A stretch of DNA of 64,000 bases, from the NCBI GenBank assembly GCA_031963445.1, contig JASSUH010000002.1:78772-142771 (forward strand). Reading direction: 5' to 3'. Position 1 is the first letter of the stretch, and each line of letters starts with the position of its first letter. The notes beneath the pieces are model-generated. The model worked only from the letters and a program-made list of their open reading frames with translations. It ran no database searches and was not told the DNA's origin. Positions 5,701-62,040 of this stretch are shown here, in pieces. A program made the position numbers and the translations under genes. Source of the stretch: Mycoavidus cysteinexigens (GTDB lineage Bacteria > Pseudomonadota > Gammaproteobacteria > Burkholderiales > Burkholderiaceae).

Positions 5701-7648
5701 TCCACTAATACGCCAAGGCCAACAGTACCGCTTTATCCATAAATCACTTCAAGAGTATTTAGTGGCACGGGCTATCTGGTCGCAATCTAAAGGCTTGCCA
5801 TTACAAAAGCAAATAGATCAGAGCCAAGCTTTGCTGGGTCAATTTGTGTTGACCAAAGAGCCAGCCATTCTTGAGTTATTAGTGGAATATACGCAAAAGC
5901 ATGTTGATTTTGCAGAGTATCTGCGCGACTGGATTGAAGCCTCTAAAGCAGAAGATGCAACGGATGAACTAAAGCAAGCCGCCGCTAATGCAATGACGAT
6001 ACTGGTACAAAGTGGAAGGGATTTCAATGGCGAAGACTTGGCGAATATAAAGATTTCTGGTGCAGATATTAGTTTTGGGAAATTTGATCATGCGATTTTA
6101 AAAGGGGCGGATTTGACAGCGGTAACAGCCCGTCAAGTTTGGCTGCGCAACGCTGATCTGAGTCAGGCCAATTTACTTGATATCAACTTTGGAGAAATGC
6201 CTTATATCGGAGAGAAGGAAGTAGTGCGTACGTTAGCCTACTCTCGCGATAATACTTTGTTAGCAGCAGGTTTATTTGAAGGGCCAATTGATATCTACCA
6301 GATTGCGACTGGGCGAAAAATTCTGACGTTGAAAGGCAAGGTAGAGAGGAGCTTAGCCTTCGCTTTTTCTCATGATAAAAAGCGCCTTATTTCAGGGGGA
6401 ATGGATCAGAAAATATATATATGGGATCTAGAAAAAGGGGGGCTAACTCATACATTTGAGGGACACAAGGATGCGATTACTAGTGTCAATTTATCCTCGG
6501 ATGAAAAATATATTGTCTCAGGCAGTGAGGATCATACGGTACGTGTTTGGAATATTGCCGAAAACAGGCTGATGTATACGCTCACCGGACATAAGGATGA
6601 CATTAGCGGTGCAATGTTTTCTACAGATGGAAAATATATTGTCTCTGGAAGCTTTGATAAAACAGTAAGAGTTTGGGATGCTGATAACGGCACCTTGCTC
6701 TCAATCAAGGAGGGTGCTGATAACGGCGTGGAATTTATTGATATCTCTGCTGATGGAGAGCGCATTGTTTCAGGAGATTTCGACGGTACAGTATGGGTAT
6801 GGGATAAAAATAAAACTGCGCCTATACATATCTTGAAAGATCACACGCACCCCATTTATGGAGTACGTTTTGCTGACAATGATGGCCGAATTGTTTCTAT
6901 CGACAAATTAGGAATAGTGAAGGTGTGGGACGCACATGACGGTTATTTATTAGATAGTTTGTTAAGACATCATGATGAAATGAGCTACACCATGCTGTCT
7001 CACGATGCTCAGCTCGCTACGTCGATAGGCAAGCATAGCGTAAGGCTTTGGGAGGTCGATACAAATCGGCCTTCACGAAAACTTGCTGAGACGTATAGCT
7101 ATGCTCCTTTTGCGGTGGCAAGTGCTCCAAAATCGTCAATTATCGCGTCAGCCAATGAGGATGGCACACTATGCCTCTGGGACGCAAAAACAGCAAAACT
7201 TCAACGTACTCTGAAGCATGAGTTATCACCTAAAGCCGTTGTGCTTAGTATGTGCCTTTCCCCTAACGAAAAGCACATGGTCTCAGCTGATACAAACGGT
7301 GCATTGATGTTATGGAATACATTAACCGGTGAGCGTCTGTGGCATTGGAATAATGATGAGCATATTTCTGCATCAATACAGAGCGTAGAATTTTCTGCTG
7401 ATGGCAAGCGCATTATTTCAGGAAATGAAGACGGAAGAATTCGTTTATGGGAGCTAGAGAAAAAGGAACCCGTATGGATTTCACCAAAGCAGGAAGAAGG
7501 CGACGATATTTATCGCGTGAAGTTTTCTGCAGATGGGAAGCGTATCGTTTCGATAGGCAACGATGAGAGATTATGTATATGGGATGTGGAAAAAAGCATA
7601 CCTATATGGACCTCAGCCAAGCAAGACGAGGGCAACGCGATTTTATAG
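2765..7648 (+). CDS. NACHT (STAND) NTPase - pentapeptide repeat - WD40 protein with a large N-terminal TPR-like domain; 3' end displaced by frameshifts
   Basis: Walker A GPAGSGKST and Walker B FIFILDGFDE. Pentapeptide-like run ISGADISFGKFDHAILKGADLTAV...NADLSQANLL, then many WD40 units (GH...SGS.D.T..VWD). The start is uncertain: TTG at 2765, or TTG at 2777, which is preceded by GGAGG. Confidence 0.85.
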   Translation: MEEKLFSLLRVRASNSSFSNVNQPSPATTSVQDLLDDARKDERAKKFDEAEKKYQQCVEVAEAQGIESTLTDVYLEYANFLYQIGKDSEARGFMNEFNQLIASRSPVSHSPSFTSSFFTSQQASIAPQLEYDVVTCVEELEETRHLAWHFEQKSRSSVLSDQALREKIEQVNRHFKEHTKVLPVIHEYLALRDIDDLELHRTLTNAMLQSLKLDRNGLLDLKLLEGLSVLLLNRPHLTHDEQRAGDYVRLLQTLIGPLETVHIDNQNLLQLHALLRTISLLLDQMVTTRVKGLERAQVQERLLLAFERFEKYPEFSWPVTYARQALAHIPNDESFFEKVARHINPTVAGGLYLVGGVFKLVAAGMASPESPALAVMIAGFEPDRFLDALRSFWQEYQQITSSRTEPWYIQLRELDGLIGMGLAKGRLDLIEKFIVDNAPKQIEKSYHENFLRGLCDRLERLAYATADLPAQEETIKFLNALQEGKFAWGKHQAIKEYAQTVLSRIKKWQNFNLESIRNDEAPPAWHAFWQAAPNRTLLNAVQKKGQRHDNIEALPAQMQDVKLAQAKLAQSIQSSFAQVTQKTEHGNVQLQGIEAEVTRLSEKINQLNIRAVETSNQSLDSLRAGIRALREDYRHSLKIDGIKDALRHYVAPEAQVSAHATERFDLLRKVREFSQSDKKVLLLLGPAGSGKSTFMRHLAIASWKAYGRDKSKPIPLFIRLAERPSFDGDLIAQYLREHGFQDVDIETLRKNQKFIFILDGFDEVENHGQAFSTKNQLLRWKAKLIVSSRPEYLGPRYHKQFQARDQRNTLQEYWLPSISDNWIKNYIEKYVESTDGAAQGWDVSRYQAAIDKFPSLKELIRRPFLLRMALEVLPEIEEQEEAASIKQTTLFDKFIECWLDRAQERLQHINLSLEEKEALNKLGKNLEAEILRAIQEMAVSLTKAHTTQAVHHEAGLVSPAEWEPYLKGDVQKRLLFLNAPLIRQGQQYRFIHKSLQEYLVARAIWSQSKGLPLQKQIDQSQALLGQFVLTKEPAILELLVEYTQKHVDFAEYLRDWIEASKAEDATDELKQAAANAMTILVQSGRDFNGEDLANIKISGADISFGKFDHAILKGADLTAVTARQVWLRNADLSQANLLDINFGEMPYIGEKEVVRTLAYSRDNTLLAAGLFEGPIDIYQIATGRKILTLKGKVERSLAFAFSHDKKRLISGGMDQKIYIWDLEKGGLTHTFEGHKDAITSVNLSSDEKYIVSGSEDHTVRVWNIAENRLMYTLTGHKDDISGAMFSTDGKYIVSGSFDKTVRVWDADNGTLLSIKEGADNGVEFIDISADGERIVSGDFDGTVWVWDKNKTAPIHILKDHTHPIYGVRFADNDGRIVSIDKLGIVKVWDAHDGYLLDSLLRHHDEMSYTMLSHDAQLATSIGKHSVRLWEVDTNRPSRKLAETYSYAPFAVASAPKSSIIASANEDGTLCLWDAKTAKLQRTLKHELSPKAVVLSMCLSPNEKHMVSADTNGALMLWNTLTGERLWHWNNDEHISASIQSVEFSADGKRIISGNEDGRIRLWELEKKEPVWISPKQEEGDDIYRVKFSADGKRIVSIGNDERLCIWDVEKSIPIWTSAKQDEGNAIL

Positions 7649-8143
7649 TATGGATCTCTCTAGCGATGGCAAGCGGGTTGTCCTAGGAGTCCGAAACGGA
7701 AAGATTCGAATTTTGAATATCGGCACAATGGCAGAGCCAAGAGTATTAGAAGGGCATACTTCGCCAATTGATGATGTGCGCTTCTCGCCCGATGAAAAAT
7801 TTATTGCCTCAGCAAGTCGAGATGAAACTGTAAAGGTGTGGGATGCTCACAGCGGTACTTGTTTAATGGTGATCAAAGGAGGGAATGATAGAGTTAGGTC
7901 ATTAGCCTGGCGGCAATCTAACCTCTGGAGGAGGGCTATGCGCTGATGACGCATGAGGGTACTAGGGCTGTAAATTTATGGCATCTTCCTAAAATACAAA
8001 AAGGGGAGCACGCCCACCTTGTCTGGAGTATCGGTGTGCCATCACTCGTACTCGATGGTGCTAATTGTGAGAAAGCGCAGGGGTTGATTGGCGATAAAGG
8101 CGAGAGAGATGCGCGTCTACTCAAACAGGCGGTGGCGGAATGA
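7644..8143 (+). pseudogene. Displaced 3' end of the 2765 NACHT-WD40 gene (last WD40 blades and C-terminal tail) lying in two other frames
   Basis: Frame 2 continues YSMDLSSDGKRVV...GHTSPIDDVRFSPDEKFIASASRDETVKVWD. Frame 3 continues EEGYALMTHEGTRAVNLWHL...LLKQAVAE. This is colinear with the C-terminus of the paralog at 14203..18273. Confidence 0.7.
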
Positions 8144-10337: not shown

Positions 10338-10730
10338 CTATTGTTCCCAATCTTCAACGCTTAATTTTGGTATACGCGCAAATTCTCGTAGGTTATGGGT
10401 AATAAGCGTCAAATTGCGTGCTCTCGCTTGCCCCGCAATCAATACATCATAGGGGCCAATAGGTGTTCCTTGTATCGCTAAATAAGCCCGTATTTCTGCT
10501 GCTTGCTTTGCATCTTCCGTATCAAGCTCTAATACTTCAAATTGCAATTGATTAACCACCGCTAAATTTTTATCTATTTTTTGGCTTTTATAAGCCCCAT
10601 AAAATAATTCATGTATGACAAGCGCAGATATCCCAAATTTATCAGGAGAATGCTGCTGAAGATGGGTAAGTAATCCGCTGTGGCCTTTTAATAGCGCAAT
10701 AATGGCATTGGTATCGAGTAAATATTTCAT
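10338..10730 (-). CDS. vapC: Type II toxin VapC (PIN-domain ribonuclease)
   Basis: MKYLLDTNAII start and the acidic PIN residues (D in LLDTN, E in HEL, D in YDVLIAG). Its start has a 4-nt overlap with the stop of the upstream antitoxin ORF. Confidence 0.9.
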   Translation of the reverse strand: MKYLLDTNAIIALLKGHSGLLTHLQQHSPDKFGISALVIHELFYGAYKSQKIDKNLAVVNQLQFEVLELDTEDAKQAAEIRAYLAIQGTPIGPYDVLIAGQARARNLTLITHNLREFARIPKLSVEDWEQ

Positions 10731-10969
10731 TTGAAAAAATCGAGCTCTGGGCGCTCTTGCTGCGGTAGCTGCTCACTGGTTGCTTGCACGAAATCGTCAT
10801 CTAAAGAACCGACTAGCGGACTTAACCAAGCCCAATCATGTGCAACAGGTTCAAGAATCACTGAATTGCCATGCCGCCGAATGCGTACTTCCTCAGTTTC
10901 AAAACGATATGCCTTGGGCAGCCTAACGGCCTGTGAACGGCCTGACCAGAATATTCTTGCGGTTTCCAT
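10727..10969 (-). CDS. vapB: Type II antitoxin VapB (AbrB/MazE SpoVT-type)
   Basis: N-terminal ...GRSQAVRLPKAYRF... motif, 80 aa, overlaps vapC. Confidence 0.85.
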   Translation of the reverse strand: METARIFWSGRSQAVRLPKAYRFETEEVRIRRHGNSVILEPVAHDWAWLSPLVGSLDDDFVQATSEQLPQQERPELDFFK

Positions 10970-11245: not shown

Positions 11246-13660
11246 GTCGGGTAGCAGCAGTACATTACTGCACCACCGCCCCCTAAGAACTGTACGGGCG
11301 GGCTTTCCCCGCATACAGCTCAAGCCTTTCAAAGCCCCTTCTCGGGAGCCGGCTTCGTCACTTGTAAACCAAGGTTATGAATTTGCATGTGGCCAATTTG
11401 GAATGAACCATCACAAGGTTCCTTGACGCGTCGTTCCCTCCATCAACGCGGTCGGATAATGTGATGGACGTGCCACCCTGTTGTTTTTGTAAGCAGTTGG
11501 CGACACACGCAACAGCGGCGGTTCTGATCAAGCCATAAAGCGAATGAGCTTTTTGTAACCAGCAAGGTTTGCCCCGCATTTTCCGACCATGACGGTCTTC
11601 AAAGTAGTATTCCCATGCTGGGTCAAAAGGATTGGCTTCGGCTTTGATTTTTATGTGACGCTGAATCGGCTACGCCAGCGGCTAAGATGCAAGGTCTTCA
11701 TGATCGTTGCACCATCTGAGCGTTTTTCATCCGTCGGGGCTGCGAAGACCCAGCTCCGGTTCCGATGAAATGGAAATACCGGTGCTTTATCCAGCGGCCT
11801 CCCTTCTGAGTGTGCCTACGACGGCACCATTGCCACAACGCATGCCATATTGCGTTATCGACTTTGGAGAAGGTTTGCTTGGCGGCTACGTACTGGTGAT
11901 AGTTTGCCCATCCTTTGATGACAGGTTGAGTAAGCTAATCAAAATTGACTTGCCTGACTGCCTATTATCTTTAATGATTGAGCGAATTTTCGTCAGAACC
12001 GCTTGGATATTCTTTTTTGATGGTTTGATTAAAAACTTGCCGTTGTATTTACGGACGTTCTGACCTAAGAAATCGAATCCTTGTGCAATGTTTGTGATCC
12101 GGGTTTTCTCTGGTGATAGAGACAACCCTCTCTCACTCAGAAATTCTTTGATCACTGGTAACGCTTCATTTTCCAGTAACTCTTTTGAAGCTCCCGTAAC
12201 AATGAAGTCATCGCAATATCGCACAAGGTTAACTTTAGGATCGGTTCGACCGCCTTTGTAACTGACCTTGCCACAGGTCATTGCAAGTCGTTCTTGCAAA
12301 CCATCCCAACGTCATATTTGCAAGCACTGGTGAAATGATACTGCCCTGTGCTGCACCTTCTTCTGTTGGACAGAATCGTTGTTTTCCAGATATCCGGCTT
12401 TTAGCCACCGTCGCAGTATCTCCTTGTCTATCCGGAATATGTTCGATCAGCCAATCATGCGAAATTTTCTCAAAACAGGCTTGTATATCTGCCTCTAAAA
12501 ATCCACTGCGGCGAAACGCTTTTTAGCGAGTGTTATAAAGCACTGCTGAATCGCATCTGCTGTAGACCTTTCAGGGCGGAATCCGTAGGAATGCAGATCC
12601 GATTTTGTCTCCGAAATGGGCTGCCAGAGCCAACAGATATAAAGCTTGCTGGGCTCTGTCAATCATACTGGGAATGTCGAGCGTCTTTTCTTATTGCCAT
12701 TGCTTTTGGGTATGTAAATTCTACGCAGTGGCTTTGGTTTGTATCCGCGTCGCTTTAGTGTTTTGATAGCTTCGTATTTGGCGATTGGTGTCGACCATAT
12801 TGCCTTGTCTACCCCTGGCGTTTTCTTTCCTTGATTTTCAGTCACTCGTCTCACAGCAATTGCTTTGCCGCTGAACGAGTGGGTTAGTAACCACTGCAAA
12901 GCCTTTAACCTTACGGTGGTTACCTTCCTTCGTTGCCTTGACTATACGCACTTGCAGCTTTTTGACTTCTTGGTAACATTTGGCCCAGTTAATGCCGTGC
13001 CAGTGTTCCGCATAGCCGGAGGGCGCAACAGCACTTATTACATATGCCGACATCTGCTACCCTCCTAAAAAAAAATTTCTCAAGTTCTTTAGTCAAGAAA
13101 AGACCCGGTCGAATTGGGCCCCGTTTTCACGGGGAATAATCTTGCTGTTCAGCTCAATCCCTATCTGCTCCATTACAGAACAGCATGCTTTTTCGACCAT
13201 CCTTTACCCGCACCTCTATCGGTGTCCCTTGCGGTTCACTTTGCCTTAAAGGCAGAGATACGGGCTTACCGAGTTCCACGTTAGATACACGGATAGTTTA
13301 GGTCTTGCCTATCACCCGATGGTTTTCATATCCTCGTGCCCGCAATTATCATCAGACAACTTACCACTTACCTTTTGGTTCAAGCTTGTCAGCATCTTTA
13401 GCTTGTCAATACTTACGAGTTTTATCAGCAATTCACATACGTTGACCATGCTATCCAGCCTAGCGCCCCGACCATTTTGATGCTAACAGTCTTTGGTTTT
13501 GCCTCGCGGCTCTCCCTTCTCTTTCGAGGGGCTACATTGTCTTAAAAGCTTCTAACCCGATCATTGCTGGTCACGCTAGTTTTAATAGGCTACTGCCGGA
13601 GGAACGACAGGTTTCTCTTTACTTTTGAAACAATATCTAACGCGACTTTGCTCGTCGCAC
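11246..13660 (-). mobile_element. Decayed group II intron (ribozyme ends retained, IEP broken)
   Basis: The minus strand starts GUGCG at 13660. Domain V-like GAGCUGUAUGCGGGGAAAGCCCGCCCGUACAGUUC lies at 11287-11321. A domain VI-like stem ends ...CUACCCGAC at 11246. The ends parallel the intact copy at 30878..33315. Confidence 0.75.
11358..13053 (-). pseudogene. Group II intron reverse transcriptase/maturase, fragmented into at least four frames
   Basis: ORF fragments 12838..13053, 12663..12899, 11886..12299 (contains YCDDFIV) and 11358..11579 are colinear with the intact 573-aa IEP at 30951..32672. Confidence 0.85.
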
Positions 13661-14202: not shown

Positions 14203-17200
14203 TTACTGGTTTCCCTTAAGCGTGGAGCCGGTTCCCCCCACGACCCCGCGTTGTTTGAGCAAACGGGTATTCATCGAACTTAATCCTTTGACGCCCTCAA
14301 TCTTTGCGCCAACCAAGGTCAACGCCGCTTGCGTCGATGTCCACCGTAAGCTGGCCTGCCATTGATGATCTACTAGGATCAATTGCCAACAGCGAACCGC
14401 TTTGTCACCGCTGCCCGTAAACAGATAGTCGAGGTTGCTTATTTTTCTCCAGGCAACACTGTTAACGTTTCCATTAAAACCTTGAATCGTCGCAAGACAT
14501 TGACCCGAAACGATATTCCACACCCGCACCGTATTGTCCCCACTCCCGGAGACCACATACTGGTCATCAACAGACAGCGCCACGCTACTCACCCAACTCT
14601 TATGTCCGCTGAGGACGTGGGGCGCGGCATTGGGTGTTTGCCAATCCCACACTCGCACCGTCTTGTCCCAACTCCCGGAGACCACGTACCGTTCATCGGC
14701 CGACATCGCGACGCTATTCACCGCATCTTGATGCCCGCTGAGGACGCGAGGCGTAGCCTCGGGCGTTTGCCAATCCCACACCCGCACCGTATGGTCCCGA
14801 CTGCCTGAGAGCACATACCGACTATCGGCTGACATCGCGACGCTATTCACCACATCTTGATGCCCGCTGAGGACGCGGGGCGCAGCCTCGAGCGTTTGCC
14901 AATCCCAAACGCGAACCGTTTTGTCCTCACTCCCTGAGACCACATATCGGCCATCCGCGGACAGCGCCACGCTACTCACCCACCCCTCATGCCCGCTGAG
15001 GACGTGGTGCGCAGCCTCGGGCGTCTGGCAATCCCACACCCGCACCGTATGGTCCCAACTCCCTGAGACCACATATCGGCCATCCGCAGACAGCGCCACG
15101 CTCATCACCCACCCCTCATGCCCGCTGAGGACGCGTGGCGCCGACTCGGGTGTTTGCCAATCCCACACCCGCACCGTCTTGTCATTACTGCCTGAGACCA
15201 CATATCGGCCATCCGCCGTTAGCGCCACGCTCCTCACCACCCCATCATGCCCGCTGAGGCCGCGAGGTGTCGCCTCGGGCGTTTGCCAATCCCACACCCG
15301 CACCGTCTTGTCCCAACTCCCGGAGACCACATATCGGCCATCCGCGGACAGCGCCACGCTACTCACCTCTAATTTATGCCAGCCGAGTAAGCGAGGCGCC
15401 GCCTCGGGTGTTTGCCAATCCCACACCCGCACCGTCTTGTCCCCACTCCCGGAAACCACATATCGGCCATCCGCGGACAGCGCTACACTACTCACATGCC
15501 CCCAATGCCCGCTGAGGACGCGTGGTACGGCCTCGGGCGTTTGCCAATCCCACACCCGCACCGTCTTGTCCCAACTCCCGGAGACCACATACCGACCATC
15601 GGCCGACATCACGACGCTACTCACCGGATGCGCATGCCCGCTGAGGACGCGGGGTGCCGCCTCGGGCGTTTGCCAATTCCATACTTGTACCGTATTGTCT
15701 TGACTCCCGGAGACCACATACCGACCATCCGCGGACAGCGCCACGCTACTCACCCACCCCTCATGCCCACTGAGGACGCGGGGCACGGCATCAGGCGTTC
15801 GCCAATCCCAAACGCGAACCGTTTTGTCCTCACTCCCGGAGACCACATATCGGCCATCAGCAGACAGCGTCACGCTAGTTACCGCCCCAGCATGCCCGCT
15901 GAGGACGCGAGGCGCCGCCTCGGGTGTTTGCCAATCCCACACCTGCACCTTGTGGTCTCTACTCCCGAAGACCACATACCGACTATCAGCGGATAGCGCC
16001 ACGCTAGTCACCTCACTCTCATGCCCGGTCAGCCGCCCTTTTTCTTCGAGAGTATGTGTATCGTACAGTGTCACTATGTTGCCATATGCCACGACTAACA
16101 GGCGTCCATCCGATGAATAGCAGCAAGTATTAACTATATTTTTAAGCTGCAACCCTGGCAATTCTCCAAACTGCACGCCTTCCATGCGTGTGCCGCCCGT
16201 TAAGTCTGCGTTTCTTAGCCAGGTGCAGGTCAAATTTACCTTGCGCAGATCCGCCCCTTGCAGTTGAGCCGAATCCAATACCCCATAACTGAGATCCGCA
16301 CCGGGAATCTGAATCCCGGCTAGATCAGCTTCATTAAACGTCACTCCCGCCCTCATCAGAATCGTCATTGCATTGGCCGCCGCCTTACGCACCGTTGAGT
16401 CAGTTTTCGAGCGTTCTATTACCGCATGCAGTTGTTCCTTGAACAACGGCTCCTGTTTGACACGCTCGGCTAAAAATTGCACTATCGACGACTCGCCAAC
16501 TAAGTTTTTGCGGGCCAACAGCGAGTCGAGTAAAGGCTGCTCTACCGCTAACGCGACGACATCCACAGCATGTTGACTTTCAAAACTTAAGACAGAATCC
16601 ACACTCCCTCGACGGCTCAAGGGGGGTGGCAAGGCCACATCTTTTCCGCTCGTTTGCGGTTCACATATCGCCAGGGCTACTGAGTACTCCAGCAGTGATT
16701 TATGGATAAAGCGATATTGATTATTGCTGCGGCTTAAAGGGCTAGCTTCAAGCAGGAGCTGCGCCTCTTCATCTCGACCAAAGAAGGTTTCTTTCCACCC
16801 CCCTTTGTCTTTAAATTGGACATACTCAACCACTGGGTTACCCGCTTGCCGCTCATAGATCGCTACGGCTAGGTCTTTTAAAAAGGCAAGGCCATTTTGC
16901 GTAAAACCCTGATTAGACAATCGCTCAAACGCCTTCTTTTTTGACCCCGACAAGTCTTTTTCTGCTAACCGTTTTTTACCCCGTTCCAGCCACTGCTCAA
17001 CAAACTGGTCATACAAAGCGATCCGCGTGATGTGGACGCTCGAAAAATCTTGTCTCGAATCCACCAGGCGGGGCAATACCTCCAACGCTAGCTTTAAAAG
17101 AAAAGGATTACGGACTAACTCTTTTAAGTGGGGAATGCGATCTAGGGCTTGCTGGTAGATATCGGCCTGCCAAATTGGTTTTTCAATCTGCACGTATTGC

Positions 17201-18273
17201 TCGATATAGCTGGCAATCTTTTGCGCTGAAAACGGCGCAATCACCGCTCCCTCAAACAGCGTGGCATCCGCATGATGATTCCGATCGATCGGCTGAAAGC
17301 GATCTTGATAATCCGCCCCCAGATATTCGCTGCGGCAACTAATCACCATCTGCGCTTGCCATTCCCCAGCTTGATTCAACCGGTTACTCATATACAGATT
17401 ATGGGTTTGCTGACTCTCGTCATAGCCATCACAAATGGCAATAAACTCGCGGTAGGTTTTGAGTTCTTTAATCTGCAGTTCGTTGAAACCTTCTTTGCGT
17501 AAGTGCTTGGTAATCAGATCGTGCTCGGGCTGGTTAATCGCCGGCAGCGTTATAAAAAGCGGAATGCGCCCGCTCTTTTTATACTTGTCCCATAAATCGG
17601 CCTCTAGCCTGCGATTAAACGTCGATTTGCCGGCCCCCGAATTGCCTAAGAGTAAGCATACCTTCTTGGTATTCTCTTGCAGAAAACCGGTGACCTTCTC
17701 GGTCAGATCAAACAACTTGTCATCCGATGATTGCAAGCTGGGTTTGCCTTGCGGCGGAATATATAACGCGTCGCCGTGCGCTTTTACGCGTCGATGTTTG
17801 AGCTTACGCAGGTCGCTTTCGACATCGAGCTTTTGTTGGACACGATCCAGCAGCACAGAAGTCGTGGGCAATGGCGGGGCCAGGTTTAGCTGCATGCTGG
17901 AGGGGCTTTCGCGAGATAAGGCTTGCGGATCGGTATTTTTATGGCTTTCTAATGCTTGCAGCACGGTTTGGGCTGCCGGTGCGCTGACTGACGTGTCGGC
18001 TAACTGGCGTAAGATCTGCATAATCCATTGCTTTACATTGGCGTGGAGGCCCCAGGTTGCGTCGTCGCGATATAGCTGGTCTAAAAAATCTAAGGCATTT
18101 TGGCGTGTATCGGTATCCCATATCGGATTGGCCGCTATTTGACCCAGACGTTCAGCTAGCCCCCACTGAAAAGCCTGGTTTCGTCGATAAGACCCCTCGC
18201 ATACCAGTTGCTTAAACTGAGCGAGTTGACCAGCTTTTAGCTGTTTATCGGCGAGACGTAAGGGGGGTACCAC
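14203..18273 (-). CDS. NACHT (STAND) NTPase - pentapeptide repeat - WD40 protein (C-terminal 1356 aa of a split gene)
   Basis: Walker A GNSGAGKST and Walker B FIAICDGYDE. Pentapeptide run IPGADLSYGVLDSAQLQGADLRKVNL...NADL, then ~14 WD40 blades. Confidence 0.9.
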   Translation of the reverse strand: MVPPLRLADKQLKAGQLAQFKQLVCEGSYRRNQAFQWGLAERLGQIAANPIWDTDTRQNALDFLDQLYRDDATWGLHANVKQWIMQILRQLADTSVSAPAAQTVLQALESHKNTDPQALSRESPSSMQLNLAPPLPTTSVLLDRVQQKLDVESDLRKLKHRRVKAHGDALYIPPQGKPSLQSSDDKLFDLTEKVTGFLQENTKKVCLLLGNSGAGKSTFNRRLEADLWDKYKKSGRIPLFITLPAINQPEHDLITKHLRKEGFNELQIKELKTYREFIAICDGYDESQQTHNLYMSNRLNQAGEWQAQMVISCRSEYLGADYQDRFQPIDRNHHADATLFEGAVIAPFSAQKIASYIEQYVQIEKPIWQADIYQQALDRIPHLKELVRNPFLLKLALEVLPRLVDSRQDFSSVHITRIALYDQFVEQWLERGKKRLAEKDLSGSKKKAFERLSNQGFTQNGLAFLKDLAVAIYERQAGNPVVEYVQFKDKGGWKETFFGRDEEAQLLLEASPLSRSNNQYRFIHKSLLEYSVALAICEPQTSGKDVALPPPLSRRGSVDSVLSFESQHAVDVVALAVEQPLLDSLLARKNLVGESSIVQFLAERVKQEPLFKEQLHAVIERSKTDSTVRKAAANAMTILMRAGVTFNEADLAGIQIPGADLSYGVLDSAQLQGADLRKVNLTCTWLRNADLTGGTRMEGVQFGELPGLQLKNIVNTCCYSSDGRLLVVAYGNIVTLYDTHTLEEKGRLTGHESEVTSVALSADSRYVVFGSRDHKVQVWDWQTPEAAPRVLSGHAGAVTSVTLSADGRYVVSGSEDKTVRVWDWRTPDAVPRVLSGHEGWVSSVALSADGRYVVSGSQDNTVQVWNWQTPEAAPRVLSGHAHPVSSVVMSADGRYVVSGSWDKTVRVWDWQTPEAVPRVLSGHWGHVSSVALSADGRYVVSGSGDKTVRVWDWQTPEAAPRLLGWHKLEVSSVALSADGRYVVSGSWDKTVRVWDWQTPEATPRGLSGHDGVVRSVALTADGRYVVSGSNDKTVRVWDWQTPESAPRVLSGHEGWVMSVALSADGRYVVSGSWDHTVRVWDCQTPEAAHHVLSGHEGWVSSVALSADGRYVVSGSEDKTVRVWDWQTLEAAPRVLSGHQDVVNSVAMSADSRYVLSGSRDHTVRVWDWQTPEATPRVLSGHQDAVNSVAMSADERYVVSGSWDKTVRVWDWQTPNAAPHVLSGHKSWVSSVALSVDDQYVVSGSGDNTVRVWNIVSGQCLATIQGFNGNVNSVAWRKISNLDYLFTGSGDKAVRCWQLILVDHQWQASLRWTSTQAALTLVGAKIEGVKGLSSMNTRLLKQRGVVGGTGSTLKGNQ
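14482..16026 (-). repeat. Twelve tandem near-identical 129-bp (43-aa) WD40 units inside the coding sequence
   Basis: The unit GH..(x)V.SVALSADGRYVVSGS.DKTVRVWDWQTPEAAPRVLS repeats with only a few variable positions. Long identical nucleotide runs are visible. Confidence 0.9.
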
Positions 18274-19619
18274 GTGCTTTTGCGTATAAAGCTAAACCCT
18301 TCTTTGATGCATTCAGAAAAGTTCTGTCCGCTCTCGATCATCGACATCCAGCCTTCGTATGCATCCGTCACCGTTTGAACGATGCCAGCAGCACCAGCAA
18401 CGCCTTTGTGAATATCGCCTATCCCTTTGATAAATTCATTGATATCGAGCCCTTTGACCGCACTCGCGAGGCCGAAAACACCTTCTAGGACTTTTCCCGT
18501 GCGGCGTAGTGCCGCTTGCCACGGTGTTTCATCATCAGGCACATATTGGAGTGCCTGAAATGCATAGGCCGCTTGATAGACCAGATAAGGATCTTCACTG
18601 TTCTGCAAGGTTTTAAGATAGGCCGCAAGCGGTTCGTGCAGTCGTTCACGCTGCAAGCCAGTAATATGGTTATCAGCCATCGCATCTAACACGTGTGAGA
18701 CCGTGCGCGTCAATAGATACCGATTGGCCGTAGCCTGTGGATGGATCTTTGGTAGATGATCACTCAGCAGGGTTAATAGCTGTACCAGATCATCGACTTT
18801 CAATGTATCCGGCGCCGCCTCGTGTATCAGTTGATCAATCCCTTCGAGGATAGAGTCCTCAAATAAGGGGTTCTGCATTTCCTTCACCAACTTCGTTAAC
18901 AAATTTCTACCGAGATCTGGTTTGGCGCTCAGAGCGACGCACACGACTTCAGTAACGGTCGTGACCTCTTTGAGTTCATCATTGATAAAGGCTCTGACGA
19001 CGTCCGCGGCGAGCGTATGCAGTCGCTCTGCTTCATCTGCATCCTCTGCAGTGGCTTGTGACCAAGTCCGTTCTTCTGAACTGAGTGGTGCGTCCTTTAA
19101 CGAGGCAGCAGATAACAAACTCAGCGCGTACGCTAACTGAGGCGAGTTAGTCAGGCGCTCATCAGGTTGAGGTAGCGCATAGGTGGGCAGAGGGGGAGGG
19201 ACGTCGCTGGCAAAAATCGCGGAAAGAGGGATAGGGTGCGCGCGTTGAAGGGAAGGCGGGGGGCTGCTGGGGTGAGAAGAGTTAGGGGATTGACTTTGGA
19301 CATATCCCCATTTTTTTGCCTTTTTATAGCTGGCTTGTGCCTTCTCGGGGTGATTTAGCCGCTCTAACAGTTGGCCGCGCTCAAAATAAGTTTGACCGAC
19401 CTTATTACGTAGCATTTGATCCGCTGCGCTCTGAGGAGCTTGGGCTTTTCTCAAGGCCCTTTTCATCTGAGAGAGTGACGCTTTTGCATTCTCGCATAAG
19501 ACTAACGATATTTTAGGATCTTGGGCTTGGCGCGCACTCTCTAAATAAAAGTTAGCCAAATTCAACGTTTCTTGCTGCGAAAGCGCGCTTCGTGCTGAAG
19601 GAAAGATACCACCCAACAT
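18237..19619 (-). CDS. N-terminal domain of the same NACHT-WD40 gene, separated from 14203..18273 by a frameshift
   Basis: It ends ...KSTWYPPYVSPINS, while the downstream ORF begins VPPLRLADKQL. The paralog reads through the equivalent ...EPWYIQLRELDGL. The likely start is the ATG at 19619, preceded by AAGGGGA. Confidence 0.7.
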   Translation of the reverse strand: MLGGIFPSARSALSQQETLNLANFYLESARQAQDPKISLVLCENAKASLSQMKRALRKAQAPQSAADQMLRNKVGQTYFERGQLLERLNHPEKAQASYKKAKKWGYVQSQSPNSSHPSSPPPSLQRAHPIPLSAIFASDVPPPLPTYALPQPDERLTNSPQLAYALSLLSAASLKDAPLSSEERTWSQATAEDADEAERLHTLAADVVRAFINDELKEVTTVTEVVCVALSAKPDLGRNLLTKLVKEMQNPLFEDSILEGIDQLIHEAAPDTLKVDDLVQLLTLLSDHLPKIHPQATANRYLLTRTVSHVLDAMADNHITGLQRERLHEPLAAYLKTLQNSEDPYLVYQAAYAFQALQYVPDDETPWQAALRRTGKVLEGVFGLASAVKGLDINEFIKGIGDIHKGVAGAAGIVQTVTDAYEGWMSMIESGQNFSECIKEGFSFIRKSTWYPPYVSPINS

Positions 19620-20013
19620 AAGGTTCCCCTTATTAGGCGCTACTAATGATCTACGGCGTAGCAGGTGTACTGCGAGGCAATAGGCATTTCGCAGCAAACG
19701 CTTTTTGAATAAACAGAATACCTACGCGATCACGCTGATAGAATCAGGTAATCCCTAGATTTTTAAATCTTCTCTTATTGTTAGGTTGGCATTGGTTTTC
19801 CAAACGTCCATCATTTGAAAACCTGTTTCGCACAACTGATAGCTGAAAAGATATCCCCGCAACATGAGCATGAAGAAAGCAATAGCGGAGCATCATTTAG
19901 TTAATCCAAATTGGACTTCAGCTAATTTGCAGAGCAAGAAGGCTGCATAAGGGTAAGAAACGCGCGGTCAGACTGGAAGCAGCTCCTCTCTTAATTTTCG
20001 AGAGATTACGTGA

Positions 20014-21619: not shown

Positions 21620-24448
21620 TCAACGTCGTTTTATATGTTCATTTAATGCGTTAAGAACTGCTTCGCTGACCTTCTCGTCTTTATCCTGTAGAGTAGAAGT
21701 CAAAACGGAAACAGCATCTGGAGATAGCGTTTCTTCTGCATTTAATATAGAAATAGCCCTCAACTTATCATTTTGATCGTATTCACTATCTTTTAAAATC
21801 TCAAGCAATACTTCCATACAAACTGTAGACAGCGTTGTATGCATGCCTAGTGCTATGGCAGCCTCAGCCTTCACTTCTTTATCTTCATCCTGTAGAACAT
21901 CCTCCAAGACGAAGAGTGCTGGCAGGGAGAGCTTCTCTTGACGGCCTAATACAGAGATAGCAGCGGCCCTAGACTTTGCCCACCCCTCATTTTCATTTTT
22001 TACAGCGTCCATCATTATTTGAATGCCAGTACTAGGTAGCGGTACTTTTTGATCGCTTAATGCTAGAGTGGCATTAAATTGCACGTCGTCGTCCTGATCC
22101 GTTAAAGCATCCTCCAAGACGGAGAGCGCTTGCGGGGGCAGTTCTTCTTGACGGCCTAATGCAGAGATTGCAGCAGCCCTAAACTCCGTCCACTCCTCAT
22201 TTTTATTTTTTACAACTTCCAGCAGCATTTGAATGCTAGTGCTAGGTAGCGGCACTTTTTGATCGGTTAATGCTAGAGCGGCGCTCAATTGCACTTCGTC
22301 GTCCTGATCTGCTAAAGCATCCTCAAAGAGGAAGAAAGCTTGCGGAGGAAGCGCCTCTTGATTGCCTAATATACGGATAGCAGTACCCCTAAACTCCGTC
22401 CACTCCTCATTTTTATTTTTTACAACGTCCATCATTATTTGAATGCCAGTACTAGGTAGCGGTACTTTTTGATCATTTAATATTACAGCGGCATTAAATT
22501 GCACTGTGTCGCTCTGATTCGCTAAAACATCTTTCAAAGCTCGAAGAGCCTCACCAGGCAGTTTTTTTCTATACAAGGTGGTTAGCTCATGTAATGCAAC
22601 GATGACTCTCATTCTATGATTATCATCATATTCATTATTTTTATTATCTAGAGCATCAATTAATATCTGAATACTAGCGCCAGACAGATATTCGTAGCGA
22701 CTCAATATTTCAGCAGCCCCAATTTTTACTGCTTTATCTTCATCCTGCAGAGCTTCCTCCAAGACGGAGAGCGCTTGCGGAGGGAGCTTCTCTTGATGGT
22801 TTAATACATGGACGGCAGCAGCTCTAGAATATGCCCTCCGTTCATTTTTATTTTTGACAATGTCAATCACTATTTGAACGCCAGTGCTAGGTAGCGGTAC
22901 TTTTTGCTGGGTTAATGCTATAGCGGCACTCAATTGCACTTCGTTGTTTTGATCTGCTAAAGCATCCTCCAAGACGGAGAGCGCTTGTGGGGGGAGTTTC
23001 TCTTGATAGCCTAATACAGAGATAGCAGTGGCCCTAAACTCTGTCCACCGTCTATTTTTATTTTTTATAACATCCACCATTATTTGAATACCAATGCTAG
23101 GTAGCGGTACTTTTTGCTTATTTAATATTAGAGCGACATTAAATTGCACTTTATCGTTCGGATCCGCTAAAGCATCTTTCGTAGCTCGGAGAGCATCATC
23201 AGGCAGTTTTTTTCCATACAAGGGCTTGGCTAGCTCATGTAATGCCTCGCTGGCTTCAATTCTACATTCGTCGTCATATTCATTATTCTTATTATCTAGA
23301 GCATCAATTAATAACTGAATATCATTATCAGAAAATTCTCTATTTATAATTAATTCCTTAGCCACTTCCATTCTCAGTATTCCGTGACTATTCTTTAAAG
23401 CAATTTTCAAAGCTAAGACCATTTCCTCTTTTACATTCTCCTCCATACTTAATACAACAATCGCTAAACGTCTATATGGAATTTTATATTCATTTTTTAA
23501 ATTTACTACCGCGTCAATTAATACCTGAAAACTGGCTGCACACTGCACTGTATTTCCATGGCTGTCAAAGGTAAAAGCTGCCGCAGCTCTCATTCTCACT
23601 AACGAATCTTTATCTTGTAAAGCAACCTCAAAAGCAAGCAGGATTTTCTCAGATAACTTACTTTGCCAGTCGCTTAGCTCACTTTGCAACTTGCTTAGTG
23701 TAGAGATTACGTTAACCCTATCATGCGTGTCATATGTTCCTTGCTCATTTACCAAAATATCAAGCAATGTTTTAATTATCGATTCGTCTAGTTTTTCATC
23801 TAGCATTTCTATTTTATTTAGTTTTTCATTTAATGTTTCATTTAGTTTTTCATTTAGTGTTTTAAATGGAATTGGCCATATAAATGAATCCAAAGCTATC
23901 TTTTTGGATTCATTTATATCTTTTTCTTTAGCTTCAAGCTTACTAGTGGTTGTCACTAAACTAGCTAACTTTCCTTGTATATTTTCAAGGCGAATTCTAA
24001 GAGCTTGTTTTTTTTCTAGGGCTTCAATTTTTTTTTGTCCGGCTTCTTGTTCCTTTTTTAATGCTTCATTCAAAGTATTACATTTTTCTTCTAAAGCGCC
24101 ACACGCTTTAGCCATAGACATAGTCATAGTGAATTGAAGTAACTTGGCTATATCACGCACAGAGCCTCTTGTATCTTCATCCGAAGTATCTGTCGCTTGG
24201 CCTACCGTTTCTTTTGCTGTATGGGATCGATTCGGTTTTAAAAACGTATCAAAAACCCATTCGTCTGTCATTTCTAGAATCTGGTCGTTATTTGCATCAT
24301 CATGCTGATCTTTGAGCATTCTTCTTTGCCCACTCATCAGCCCTTTCCAATTTTCGAGTTCTTTTTGGATATGAGATTGTTCACTACTCTGTATAACAGC
24401 CTGGTTAGAAAAACTTCTTGCCTGCCCTAAAGAATTTACTGGATTCAC
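21620..24448 (-). CDS. HEAT-repeat protein with N-terminal coiled coil; internal ~95-aa tandem super-repeats
   Basis: The unit LPPQALSVLEDALADQ..EVQ.SAA.AL..QKVPLPSTGIQI..D.VKNKNE... recurs about six times. It is preceded by a coiled-coil-like K/E/L-rich segment. Confidence 0.8.
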   Translation of the reverse strand: MNPVNSLGQARSFSNQAVIQSSEQSHIQKELENWKGLMSGQRRMLKDQHDDANNDQILEMTDEWVFDTFLKPNRSHTAKETVGQATDTSDEDTRGSVRDIAKLLQFTMTMSMAKACGALEEKCNTLNEALKKEQEAGQKKIEALEKKQALRIRLENIQGKLASLVTTTSKLEAKEKDINESKKIALDSFIWPIPFKTLNEKLNETLNEKLNKIEMLDEKLDESIIKTLLDILVNEQGTYDTHDRVNVISTLSKLQSELSDWQSKLSEKILLAFEVALQDKDSLVRMRAAAAFTFDSHGNTVQCAASFQVLIDAVVNLKNEYKIPYRRLAIVVLSMEENVKEEMVLALKIALKNSHGILRMEVAKELIINREFSDNDIQLLIDALDNKNNEYDDECRIEASEALHELAKPLYGKKLPDDALRATKDALADPNDKVQFNVALILNKQKVPLPSIGIQIMVDVIKNKNRRWTEFRATAISVLGYQEKLPPQALSVLEDALADQNNEVQLSAAIALTQQKVPLPSTGVQIVIDIVKNKNERRAYSRAAAVHVLNHQEKLPPQALSVLEEALQDEDKAVKIGAAEILSRYEYLSGASIQILIDALDNKNNEYDDNHRMRVIVALHELTTLYRKKLPGEALRALKDVLANQSDTVQFNAAVILNDQKVPLPSTGIQIMMDVVKNKNEEWTEFRGTAIRILGNQEALPPQAFFLFEDALADQDDEVQLSAALALTDQKVPLPSTSIQMLLEVVKNKNEEWTEFRAAAISALGRQEELPPQALSVLEDALTDQDDDVQFNATLALSDQKVPLPSTGIQIMMDAVKNENEGWAKSRAAAISVLGRQEKLSLPALFVLEDVLQDEDKEVKAEAAIALGMHTTLSTVCMEVLLEILKDSEYDQNDKLRAISILNAEETLSPDAVSVLTSTLQDKDEKVSEAVLNALNEHIKRR

Positions 24449-41880: not shown

Positions 41881-41886
41881 ATCAAC

Positions 41887-42975: not shown

Positions 42976-43039
42976 TAGCTTCCTAGTTATGTGGCTTAAT
43001 TAAACCAAGTGTCAGCGTGTTAGCCCGTGGGGTATATTA

Positions 43040-58387: not shown

Positions 58388-58553
58388 TTGCGGAAATGCC
58401 AGCAATCTAAGTATTTCATTTAAATACAGACTGGTGAATTGCGCCAGCCTGTATTTGTATAGTGTGCACTTTCATTTGCTATGTGACGCAAATAACTATA
58501 TGAAGCTGTAGTGAGATTTTAGTTTGCAGTGTTTGGAGAAGGTGGAGACTGAC

Positions 58554-61459: not shown

Positions 61460-61503
61460 CCCCAAAAAGTTGGACATCAATCTGACTCTTGGGGTTTTTT
61501 ATT

Positions 61504-62040
61504 ATGACTAGGCATACAGAGCATTTCAAACTATTAGTGATTGAAGATTATCTAAGTAACACAGCTGGTTTTATGGCTGTTGGCAATCGGCATGGAATCG
61601 AGGCGAGCACAGTGCGTAGATGGGTAGCAGCGTATCGTGTACATGGGGAAGCTAGTGTCAAAAAAAAGCGTAGTCGCTATAGTGCACAATATAAGCTTGC
61701 TGTACTGAAGCACATGCGAAAGCACGCCCTGTCCTATCGCCAAACGGAAGCCTATTTTGATATTCGTAGTGCAGGTATTATCGGCCGTTGGGAGCGCCAG
61801 TATGATGCAGGAGGTATACAAGCGCTGTCTGATTGCCCACAAAAATGCTTGAAGAAGATGCAAGACCCTACCCATCCCCCTCACCAGCCTGAAAATGATG
61901 AAAGGCGCCCACGCGAACAATGGCTTAAAGAGTTGAATTACTTGCGTATGGAGAACGCTTATCTAAAAAAGCTCAGCGCCTTAATTCAAGCGGATCAGCA
62001 GGCAATACATCGCAACAAACGCAAATCATCCTTGAATTAA
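61504..62040 (+). CDS. IS3-family transposase OrfA (HTH)
   Basis: MTRHTEHFKL... HTH, then a leucine-zipper-like end. The slippery A AAA AAG lies at 61965-61971 in the zero frame. Confidence 0.85.
   Translation: MTRHTEHFKLLVIEDYLSNTAGFMAVGNRHGIEASTVRRWVAAYRVHGEASVKKKRSRYSAQYKLAVLKHMRKHALSYRQTEAYFDIRSAGIIGRWERQYDAGGIQALSDCPQKCLKKMQDPTHPPHQPENDERRPREQWLKELNYLRMENAYLKKLSALIQADQQAIHRNKRKSSLN

What the first reader, a model, noticed from the sequence alone, without database searches (positions are those of the whole stretch)
14482..16026. Twelve near-identical 43-aa WD40 units with variation confined to a few positions (high internal repeat conservation, as in fungal NWD/HNWD receptors)
The units read GH-x-x-x-V-x-SVALSADGRYVVSGS-x-DKTVRVWDWQTPEAAPRVLS. 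The nucleotide sequence is also nearly identical from unit to unit, which argues for recent expansion or concerted evolution by unequal recombination. Differences concentrate at four places:
- the three residues after GH (E/A/W/D/Q/K, G/H/S/D/L, W/A/P/H/V/E)
- the residue before SV (T/S/R/M/N)
- the residue in GS-x-D (E/Q/W/G/N/R)
- the second residue after that D (K/N/H)

These positions are expected on the top face of a beta-propeller. In fungal STAND/NLR-like incompatibility genes this pattern is interpreted as a rapidly diversifying recognition surface. The paralog at 2765..8143 has ordinary, divergent WD40 blades. Such a repeat array is also an assembly hazard, so the copy number could be wrong.
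Basis: partly seen in the sequence, partly recalled or inferred. Interest (0 to 1): 0.65.

Follow-up and report, generated by a model that had tools for sequence, protein, structure and literature searches.

The report
Hypervariable WD40 sensor of endosymbiont NLR
This is the repeat-built sensor end of an NLR-type immune-receptor-like gene in a bacterium related to Mycoavidus (which lives inside Mortierella fungi); its 12 similar WD40 blades vary almost only at six surface positions, a known design seen in fungal and bacterial receptors, and the gene copy here is broken by a one-base frameshift.

Summary
The repeat is real. There are twelve in-register 43-aa WD40 units on the minus strand (14479..16026), flanked by two degenerate blades. 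That makes 14 blades, modelled as two 7-bladed propellers; the closest solved structure is 2YMU.

Six columns (3, 4, 5, 7, 23, 25) carry 46% of all amino-acid differences (p=1e-14). They lie in the D-A loop/start of strand A and the B-C turn. They include the four positively selected sites of Podospora HNWD repeats.

The DNA is not "nearly identical". Units are 81% identical on average, with synonymous divergence of about 0.46. Units inside the array are no more alike than units in arrays of other Mycoavidus genomes. There is no positional orthology, and the unit number is conserved.

The best reading is an old amplification held by purifying selection on the scaffold (dN/dS 0.18), with diversification on the top face and some unit-to-unit mosaicism.

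The gene is ARM-like solenoid–NACHT–pentapeptide–WD40. This family is already known to be shared between Mycoavidus and Mortierellaceae fungi. Its N-terminal and WD40 modules have different nearest relatives, so it is a chimera. It is split by a 1-nt frameshift in a homopolymer.

It is a new member of a known kind.

The parts
14203..19697 (-). Whole NLR-like gene (about 1,830 aa if repaired): TPR/ARM-like solenoid, NACHT, pentapeptide linker, 14-blade WD40. It is read as two ORFs (18237..19697 and 14203..18273).
   Evidence: ORFs. Pfam ARM_5 profile positions 17-276 lie in the upstream ORF and 279-383 in the downstream ORF. Relatives are single ORFs of 1766-2041 aa. L021 reads straight through the junction.
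18262..18267 (-). Frameshift site. It is a C6 run on the coding strand (G6 on the + strand). One more C would restore ...RKSTWYP-PLRLAD...
   Evidence: Sequence. Alignment to L021 (...RKSAWYP|ALRGAD...). Homopolymer list.
17962..19052 (-). ARM-like alpha-solenoid N-terminal domain (PF23948 ARM_5), spanning the frameshift. A weak TPR match lies upstream (19311..19394).
   Evidence: E=7.5e-53 and 1.7e-07.
17194..17661 (-). NACHT NTPase domain. Walker A GNSGAGKS is at 17623..17646, and a Walker-B-like ICDGYDE follows.
   Evidence: Pfam NACHT at E=1.3e-05 and 25.6 bits, just under the gathering score of 26.7. Motifs. Homologs carry PF05729.
16195..16302 (-). Pentapeptide-repeat linker. It is equally conserved (70-79% aa) with all family lineages and is the likely junction where N-terminal and WD40 modules were recombined.
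   Evidence: Pfam PF00805. Segment-wise identities.
16027..16161 (-). Degenerate first blade (blade 0) preceding the array.
   Evidence: Sequence. Four strands at model residues 18-51.
14608..16026 (-). Units 1-11 of the 43-aa repeat. Consensus: GHEGWVSSVALSADGRYVVSGSWDKTVRVWDWQTPEAAPRVLS. Hypervariable columns are 3, 4, 5, 7, 23, 25.
14479..14607 (-). Unit 12. It matches the consensus for about 31 residues, then diverges (NIVSGQCLATIQG).
14374..14478 (-). Degenerate last blade (blade 14), FNGNVNSVAWRK...GSGDKAVRCWQL.
   Evidence: Predicted as strands in the single-sequence model, but with low confidence in the MSA model.
14206..14373 (-). C-terminal tail conserved with the L019/L015/L024 genes (…LRWTS.Q..LTLVGAKI.GV.GLS.MN.RLLKQRG). 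The stop codon is at 14203..14205.

Best explanation
The array is the ligand-sensing end of an NLR-like STAND NTPase carried by a Burkholderiales endofungal bacterium close to Mycoavidus.

Architecture:
- Fourteen WD40 blades form two 7-bladed propellers.
- In each of the 12 repeated blades the beta-sheet scaffold and the bottom-face loops are kept almost constant.
- Six residues at the D-A loop/start of strand A and in the B-C turn differ from blade to blade. Together they give a mosaic top-face binding surface.

Inferred mechanism (by analogy with Apaf-1, HET-E and bacterial NLR/Avs proteins):
- Binding of a protein ligand to this surface releases the NACHT module to bind NTP and oligomerise.
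- This brings the N-terminal alpha-solenoid (ARM_5) domains together to signal.

Evolution:
- The units descend from one blade amplified long ago (dS about 0.4-0.5).
- The similarity seen today is maintained mainly by purifying selection on the scaffold.
- The top-face sites are under diversifying or relaxed selection.
- Occasional unit-to-unit exchange has occurred.
- The whole WD40 module has been recombined onto different NACHT modules at the conserved pentapeptide linker.

This particular copy carries a 1-nt homopolymer frameshift. It is either recently inactivated or mis-sequenced.

Shown: anatomy, variability pattern, divergence levels, chimerism, family membership.
Inferred: ligand sensing, oligomerisation, current activity.
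For: - Domain order ARM_5-NACHT-pentapeptide-WD40. Walker A and B motifs are intact.
- There are 12 in-register units plus 2 degenerate blades.
- The AF2 model with an MSA has pLDDT 82, with four strands per unit and a break after unit 6.
- The best sequence and fold match is 2YMU, a 14-blade repetitive double propeller (E=2.9e-127; Foldseek E=3.9e-45). Apaf-1 is also among the hits.
- The same six columns are the most variable in the window and in 46 pooled units from six arrays. All 46 units have different six-residue combinations.
- Scaffold dN/dS is 0.18, while hypervariable dN relative to scaffold dS is about 1.9.
- The positions match HNWD codons 7, 9, 25, 27.
- Within-array pS is 0.344, against 0.354-0.384 to L016, L019, L022 and L015.
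- There is no positional orthology.
- The PHI test shows mosaicism (0 of 2000 permutations reach the observed value).
- Chimerism: residues 1-650 are 63-87% identical to L001/L021 but 36-51% to L019/L015. Residues 705-1356 are 59-84% identical to L019/L015/L024 but 38-47% to L001/L021.
- The family is shared with Mortierellaceae NLRs.
Against: - No ligand, expression or activity data exist.
- The gene is interrupted by a frameshift, and its product is absent from the protein database, possibly because the gene was annotated as a pseudogene in its source record.
- The neighbouring paralog has at least two frameshifts, so this region may hold decaying genes.
- The NACHT Pfam score is marginal (25.6 versus 26.7 bits).
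- The dN/dS values are pairwise counts on non-independent, recombining units (6 codons), not a likelihood test.
- No match to known antiphage NLR families in PADLOC beyond a P-loop-level hit.
Confidence: 0.7

Rival explanations
1. One reading: a young array, recently expanded or kept homogeneous by ongoing concerted evolution (unequal crossing-over or gene conversion), as in Podospora HNWD genes. Repeat number and content would turn over rapidly.
For: - The PHI test indicates exchange of segments between units.
- Units 2/9 and 10/11 share long tracts that include synonymous variants.
- Two related arrays are more homogeneous (L019 pS 0.14, L022 pS 0.13).
- L022 is a chimera of two unit types.
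- The nearest-neighbour unit lies in the same gene for 28 of 46 units.
- Array GC3 is 0.68 against 0.53 in the rest of the gene. This could reflect GC-biased conversion.
Against: - Units are only 81% identical at the DNA level, with dS about 0.46.
- Within-array divergence equals divergence to arrays in other genomes.
- The unit count is 12 in every array that could be registered by position.
- HNWD repeats reach up to 100% identity.
- The 85% pairwise HiC threshold is not met (76.7%).
Confidence: 0.2
2. This copy is a dead gene. The frameshift is real, the endosymbiont is shedding its NLR-like genes, and the variability pattern is only a fossil of past selection.
For: - A frameshift splits ARM_5.
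- No protein with this sequence is on record.
- Paralog 2765..~8143 has at least two frameshifts.
- The region is rich in mobile elements.
- Disrupted repetitive propellers are common in bacteria.
Against: - There is a single lesion, in a 6-nt homopolymer, which is a classic sequencing-error site.
- About 5.5 kb of otherwise open reading frame remains, with intact NTPase motifs.
- This view does not conflict with the sensor reading of the ancestral gene.
Confidence: 0.35
3. Targeted hypermutation by a diversity-generating retroelement, or another mutator acting on the array.
For: Reverse transcriptase genes are present in the window (30951..32672, with a fragment at 11886..12299). DGR-diversified STAND sensors are known in bacteria (listing, PMC10907252).
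Against: - The RT is a group II intron maturase (RVT_N, RVT_1, GIIM, HNH).
- There is no template copy of the unit outside the array.
- Substitutions show no adenine bias (rates A 0.105, C 0.106, G 0.158, T 0.052).
Confidence: 0.02
4. Assembly artefact: the copy number or order of units is wrong because of repeat collapse or expansion.
For: It is a tandem array of 129-nt units. The homopolymer frameshift hints at error-prone reads.
Against: - The longest exact internal repeat is 62 nt, and no two units are identical.
- 12+2 = 14 blades fits two closed 7-bladed propellers.
- Independent assemblies of related genes that could be registered by position also carry 12 units.
Confidence: 0.03

Closest known systems
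Mycoavidus / Mortierellomycota NACHT-PPR-WD40 NOD-like receptors with a long alpha-solenoid N-terminal domain (Ciach et al. 2024, PMC11291939; Wojciechowski et al. 2022, PMC9815663)
   Same: - The domain order is identical (ARM_5, NACHT, pentapeptide, WD40).
- Among 185,579 prokaryotic species genomes, every relative the peptide-pattern scan found (close relatives only) was in a Mycoavidus MAG.
- The best hits in the protein database are Mortierellaceae fungi at 50-59% identity.
   Different: - The published work describes the family and the trans-kingdom transfer. In the passages I read (term searches only), it does not mention the internally conserved 43-aa unit type, its hypervariable columns or the module swapping seen here.
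- The fungal homologs examined carry ordinary WD40 blades.
Podospora anserina HNWD/NWD family (HET-E, HET-D, HET-R; Paoletti et al. 2007, PMC1805685)
   Same: - NACHT plus C-terminal WD40 with internally conserved units.
- Variability sits at the pairs of residues flanking the conserved Val and Asp.
- The same repeat type is shared by paralogs with divergent NACHT domains.
- Nearly every unit has a unique combination of variable residues.
   Different: - The unit is 43 aa here.
- The N-terminal domain is ARM_5, not HET.
- DNA identity is about 81%, not up to 100%.
- There is no excess within-genome similarity, the unit number is fixed at 12, and the organism is bacterial so there is no RIP.
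WRAP / Npun_R6612 of Nostoc punctiforme (PDB 2YMU) and other 'highly repetitive' bacterial WD40 propellers on STAND NTPases (Dunin-Horkawicz et al. 2014; Pereira & Lupas 2022)
   Same: - Best sequence and fold match.
- 14 blades forming two 7-bladed propellers at the C-terminus of a STAND NTPase.
- Frequent disruption by frameshifts.
   Different: - WRAP blades are nearly identical, with almost no synonymous differences (very recent amplification). Here the units have dS of about 0.46.
- The unit consensus differs: 43 versus 41 aa, with a longer C-D loop (WDWQTPEAAP).
Apaf-1 and bacterial NLR-related / Avs antiphage STAND proteins
   Same: - A STAND NTPase followed by a repeat sensor.
- Apaf-1's double propeller is among the fold hits.
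   Different: - No CARD or nuclease/protease effector.
- Only a weak P-loop-level PADLOC hit (PDC-S60, E=4e-6).

Membership tests
Mycoavidus/Mortierellomycota ARM_5-NACHT-PPR-WD40 NLR family | Long alpha-solenoid N-terminal domain (PF23948 ARM_5) | tested here: met
   ARM_5 at E=7.5e-53 in the upstream ORF, continuing in the downstream ORF at E=1.7e-07.
Mycoavidus/Mortierellomycota ARM_5-NACHT-PPR-WD40 NLR family | NACHT NTPase followed by pentapeptide repeats and WD40 | tested here: met
   NACHT at aa 205-360 (25.6 bits, marginal), pentapeptide at aa 658-693, WD40 with 13 stretches. Walker A and B motifs are present.
Mycoavidus/Mortierellomycota ARM_5-NACHT-PPR-WD40 NLR family | Closest relatives are in Mycoavidus and Mortierellaceae | tested here: met
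   All 32 prokaryotic loci are Mycoavidus MAGs, at up to 70% aa identity. The top protein hits are Mortierellaceae at 50-59%.
Fungal HNWD/NWD-type 'high internal conservation' (HiC) WD40 NLRs | Repeat units at least 85% identical over at least 100 aa (Dyrka et al. 2014) | tested here: inconclusive
   Pairwise amino-acid identity is 76.7%, below the threshold. Identity to the consensus is 85.4%. The outcome depends on how conservation is measured.
Fungal HNWD/NWD-type 'high internal conservation' (HiC) WD40 NLRs | Concerted evolution: units more alike within a genome or gene than between; near-identical DNA | tested here: not met
   Nucleotide identity is 81%. pS within the array is 0.344, against 0.354-0.384 between arrays. 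There is no positional orthology, but also no grouping by genome. Only mosaicism is seen.
Fungal HNWD/NWD-type 'high internal conservation' (HiC) WD40 NLRs | Diversifying selection at the residues flanking the conserved Val and Asp (top face) | tested here: met
   Columns 5, 7, 23 and 25 (plus 3 and 4) are the most variable. dN relative to scaffold dS is 1.0-3.3 by counting. The positions match Paoletti's codons 7, 9, 25, 27. No formal likelihood test was run.
Fungal HNWD/NWD-type 'high internal conservation' (HiC) WD40 NLRs | Repeat-number polymorphism between alleles | not testable with these tools
   No ortholog was found in genome or metagenome collections. Paralogous arrays registered by position have 12 units.
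Fungal HNWD/NWD-type 'high internal conservation' (HiC) WD40 NLRs | N-terminal HET domain (HNWD subfamily) | tested here: not met
   The N-terminus is TPR/ARM_5, with no HET hit.
Recently amplified 'highly repetitive' bacterial propellers (WRAP-like) | Near-identical blades with few or no synonymous differences | tested here: not met
   dS is about 0.46 between units.
Recently amplified 'highly repetitive' bacterial propellers (WRAP-like) | 14 WD40 blades forming two 7-bladed propellers C-terminal to a STAND NTPase | tested here: met
Known antiphage NLR/Avs/bNACHT systems (PADLOC-DB v2) | Significant full-length match to a defence-system HMM | tested here: not met
   The only hit is PDC-S60 at E=4e-6, 23 bits, over 115 residues around the P-loop.
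DGR-diversified STAND sensors | DGR-type RT, template repeat, adenine-specific substitutions | tested here: not met
   The RT is a group II intron type. There is no template copy and no adenine bias.

The most novel reading that the evidence does not exclude
The endosymbiont's NLR-like proteins may not be bacterial immune receptors at all. They could be host-directed tools. In this reading, a Mycoavidus-specific, GC-rich, hypervariable WD40 'cassette' is swapped between NACHT modules and moved on conjugative elements. This would let the bacterium produce look-alikes of the Mortierella host's own (homologous) NLRs that bind or titrate host or rival-symbiont proteins inside the hypha. It would be a trans-kingdom receptor-mimicry arms race. 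The data do not exclude this: the unit type was found only in Mycoavidus, the gene family is shared with the host, and the gene sits beside T4SS coupling/relaxase genes and low-GC eukaryote-like LRR proteins.
Probability: 0.1. Interest if true: 0.75.

Novelty: new member of a known kind. Interest (0 to 1): 0.4.

Why it matters
NLR-like receptors with internally conserved, surface-hypervariable repeats are thought to be fast-evolving recognition modules in fungi and multicellular bacteria. This example puts such a module in an obligate endofungal bacterium whose NLR family is shared with its fungal host.

- It offers a tractable pair of partners for asking what these receptors recognise: phage, mobile elements, or the other partner.
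- It shows that high repeat similarity can be kept by selection on the scaffold, without recent amplification.
- It shows that sensor arrays are exchanged between divergent NACHT modules at a conserved linker.

None of this overturns current views; it extends them.

Tried and rejected
- **Source genome.** Exact-sequence look-ups of window proteins (VapC, TrwC, the 1356-aa ORF) found nothing.
- **Array against 5.8 billion proteins.** Only generic WD40 hits of at most 51% identity came back. The unit type therefore appears absent from annotated proteins, fungal ones included. The caveat is that unannotated MAGs and pseudogenes are not in that database.
- **Metagenome DNA pattern scan** for the unit: zero hits.
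- **Metagenome protein scan** with the C-terminal module: only hits of at most 46% identity. No ortholog was found, so allele or strain polymorphism could not be tested.
- **DGR hypothesis:** rejected.
- **Positional orthology between arrays:** none.
- **PHI test on all 46 pooled units:** not significant (p=0.36). Only the within-window test was significant.
- **Single-sequence AF2 model:** poor (pLDDT 64.6). The MSA model was better (82.1), but its last blade and tail had low confidence.
Face assignment therefore used strand positions plus known WD40 topology.
- **GC and codon composition** did not settle the direction of the fungus-bacterium transfer.
Full report
**Observation**

Tandem Repeats Finder reports one strong array at 14518..16027: period 129, 11.7 copies, 81% matches, score 1729. 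It lies inside a 1356-aa ORF on the minus strand (14203..18273).

Cutting the protein at every 'GH' gives twelve in-register 43-aa units (aa 750-1265, window 14479..16026). Units 1-11 follow the consensus GHEGWVSSVALSADGRYVVSGSWDKTVRVWDWQTPEAAPRVLS. Unit 12 follows it for about 31 residues and then diverges. One degenerate blade precedes the array and one follows it, making 14 blades in all.

Columns 3, 4, 5, 7, 23 and 25 each have 3-6 residue types, while 13 columns are invariant across all 12 units. Among units 1-11, those six columns hold 256 of 551 pairwise amino-acid differences (46.5% against 14% expected). They also hold 37 of 69 non-consensus residues (binomial p=1e-14).

The claim of near-identical DNA is not correct:
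- Units 1-11 are on average 81% identical at the nucleotide level (range 74-89%).
- Third-codon positions differ at 30% of sites.
- pS is 0.34 and dS about 0.46.
- Pairwise amino-acid identity is 76.7%, and identity to the consensus is 85%.

**The gene**

Pfam finds, in order, a C-terminal piece of ARM_5 (profile positions 279-383), NACHT (aa 205-360, marginal score), a pentapeptide repeat (658-693) and WD40. The Walker A motif GNSGAGKS and a Walker-B-like ICDGYDE are intact.

The ORF immediately upstream (18237..19697) carries ARM_5 profile positions 17-276. In related genes the same region is one continuous ORF. L021 reads ...RKSAWYP|ALRGAD..., where the window reads ...RKSTWYP in one frame and PPLRLAD in the next. 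The break falls in a C6 run (G6 on the + strand, 18262..18267), and one extra C would restore the frame.

The real gene is therefore 14203..19697, about 1,830 aa, interrupted by a single homopolymer frameshift. Related full-length genes are 1766-2041 aa.

**Organism and family**

Among one genome for each of 185,579 prokaryotic species, all 32 loci that a scan with peptide patterns from the N-terminal 749 aa found to encode relatives (a method that reaches close relatives only) are in Mycoavidus cysteinexigens MAGs. These are Burkholderia-related endosymbionts of Mortierellaceae. The best match is 70% identical.

In the 5.8-billion-protein database the best hits are Mortierellaceae fungal proteins at 50-59% identity with the same Pfam domains.

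The window's TrwB coupling protein is 72-79% identical to unnamed NCBI proteins. One of these lies on a 109,192-bp contig, the size of a BRE-AV005 scaffold. It is about 65% identical to Burkholderiales plasmid proteins.

The window also holds a TrwC relaxase, a resolvase, VapBC and group II introns. It is therefore bacterial mobile-element-rich DNA from a Mycoavidus-like endobacterium that is not itself in the collections.

The sharing of NACHT-PPR-WD40 NLRs, and of their long alpha-solenoid N-terminal domain, between Mycoavidus and Mortierellomycota is already published as trans-kingdom gene transfer (PMC11291939; 10.1101/2022.03.16.484565).

**Structure**

The closest solved structure by sequence is 2YMU, the 14-blade 'highly repetitive propeller' of Nostoc (E=2.9e-127).

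An AF2 model built with a 62-sequence alignment has mean pLDDT 82. It shows four strands per unit, a low-confidence break after unit 6, and low confidence for the last blade and tail. Foldseek again ranks 2YMU first, followed by tandem double-propeller proteins including Apaf-1.

In every unit the strands fall as follows:

| Strand | Columns |
|---|---|
| A | 6-11 |
| B | 17-22 |
| C | 26-31 |
| D | 40-43 |

Columns 3-5 and 7 therefore lie in the D-A loop and the first turn of strand A. Columns 23 and 25 flank the invariant Asp in the B-C turn. By established WD40 topology the D-A and B-C loops form the top, ligand-binding face. This assignment is inferred, because I could not read model coordinates. 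The bottom-face loops (SADGR and WQTPEAAP) are conserved.

Paoletti et al. found HNWD codons 7, 9, 25 and 27 under positive selection. These flank the conserved codons 8 and 26. They correspond to columns 5, 7, 23 and 25 here.

**Selection**

Nei-Gojobori counts give dN/dS of 0.18 for the 37 scaffold columns. For the six variable columns, dN is 0.83 against a scaffold dS of 0.43, a ratio of about 1.9. Columns 4, 5 and 23 reach 2.2-3.3.

These are pairwise counts on few codons, in sequences that recombine. They are indicative, not a formal test.

**Age and mode of evolution**

The same unit type occurs in arrays of five other loci (L015, L016, L019, L022, L024), which come from three other Mycoavidus MAGs. 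The same six columns are the most variable in the 46 pooled units, and all 46 units carry different six-residue combinations.

| Comparison | Nucleotide identity | pS |
|---|---|---|
| Units within the window array | 0.811 | 0.344 |
| Window units vs L019, L016, L022, L015 arrays | 0.77-0.80 | 0.354-0.384 |

The window's units are therefore barely more alike than units compared across arrays. Same-position units in different arrays are no more similar than different-position units (0.802 against 0.802 for L019; permutation p of 0.37-0.50). The arrays that could be registered by position have 12 units.

This equidistance fits an old burst of amplification followed by spread of the module. It does not fit recent expansion or strong locus-specific homogenisation.

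Some exchange between units has happened. A PHI test on the 11 units is significant (observed 0.579, permuted 0.712±0.038, 0 of 2000), and shared tracts are visible. Two related arrays (L019, L022) are more homogeneous, and L022 mixes two unit types.

**Module swapping**

| Region of the protein | Identity to L001/L021/L002/L006 | Identity to L019/L015/L016 (and L024 where present) |
|---|---|---|
| Residues 1-650 | 63-87% | 36-51% |
| Pentapeptide linker | 70-79% | 70-79% |
| Blade 0 to residue 1222 (end of unit 11) | 32-46% | 68-84% (incl. L024) |

The last segment (unit 12, blade 14 and tail) keeps the same direction but is weaker: 59-67% to L019, L015 and L024, against 43-47% to L001/L021/L002/L006 (L016 is cut short by its contig end). 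The gene is a chimera whose junction lies at or near the conserved linker.

**Other checks**

- The array is GC-rich: GC3 is 0.68, against 0.53 for the rest of the gene and 0.30-0.49 for neighbouring genes. The related arrays show the same pattern. The cause is undetermined.
- No DGR is present. The RT is a group II intron type. There is no template copy and no adenine bias.
- The longest exact internal repeat is 62 nt, so collapse during assembly is unlikely.
- PADLOC gives only a P-loop-level hit.
- The unit type was not found among the Mortierellaceae homologs, in the protein database or in metagenomes.

**Verdict**

The repeat and its confined variability are real and significant. The NLR/HNWD analogy is apt and is even backed by homology to fungal NLRs. 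The 'nearly identical DNA, recent expansion' part is wrong.

Highly repetitive WD40 propellers on bacterial STAND proteins, and this Mycoavidus/Mortierella NLR family, are both already described. This is a new member of a known kind.

Two modestly new points emerge: a Mycoavidus-restricted hypervariable unit family, and sensor-module swapping. This copy may be inactive.

Noticed in passing
window 2765..~8143 (+): A second ARM_5-...-WD40 NLR-like gene with ordinary, divergent blades. Its 3' part needs at least two frame changes (near 7640 and again downstream) to read through, so it looks like a pseudogene.
   Followed up: partly
window 21620..24448 (-), tandem repeats 21898..22531 and 22751..23176: A 942-aa HEAT-repeat protein whose DNA contains 210-nt tandem repeats (3.0 and 2.0 copies, 78-81% matches). 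This is a second internally conserved repeat array in the same window. No NACHT was detected in this ORF. Another HEAT protein lies at 29574..30716.
   Followed up: partly
window 37568..38650 and 38758..39990 (-): Two LRR proteins of very low GC (27-28% against 43% for the window). Their N-termini resemble F-box motifs (e.g. LPEEVIEKILYFL), so they are candidate eukaryote-like effectors. Pfam found only LRR.
   Followed up: partly
window 40138..45868 (+): Conjugation genes: a TrwB/TraD coupling protein, a YhcG-like PDDEXK nuclease and a TrwC relaxase-helicase. The NLR genes sit on or next to a conjugative element. A database entry identical to the window's TrwB (its source masked) lists a longest contig of 192,288 bp.
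   Followed up: partly
window 30951..32672 (-), 11886..12299 (-), 32378..33315: A complete group II intron RT/maturase (RVT_N, RVT_1, GIIM, HNH) and a truncated RT fragment. The stretch 32378..33315 is 85% identical to the edge of Mycoavidus locus L001.
   Followed up: partly
window 10338..10969 (-): A VapBC-type toxin-antitoxin pair (PIN-like 130-aa ORF overlapping an 80-aa antitoxin ORF). Identified by reading the sequence only.
   Followed up: no
L022 (Mycoavidus BRE-AV005), ORF residues ~1400-1880: One WD40 array made of two different internally conserved unit types in tandem: GH...SVVYSPSGHQLASAS.D.TVRLWD units followed by the SADGRYVVSGS type. This is direct evidence that arrays are spliced together.
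   Followed up: partly
window 14479..16026 versus the rest: The array has GC 62% and GC3 0.68, far above its own gene (GC3 0.53) and its neighbours. The related Mycoavidus arrays show the same enrichment. The cause was not resolved; candidates are foreign origin of the unit, GC-biased conversion, or codon selection.
   Followed up: partly
window 58524..59846 (+); 61489..62663 (+): A JmjC/cupin-domain protein (unusual in bacteria), followed by two ORFs that look like the two halves of an IS3-family transposase.
   Followed up: no
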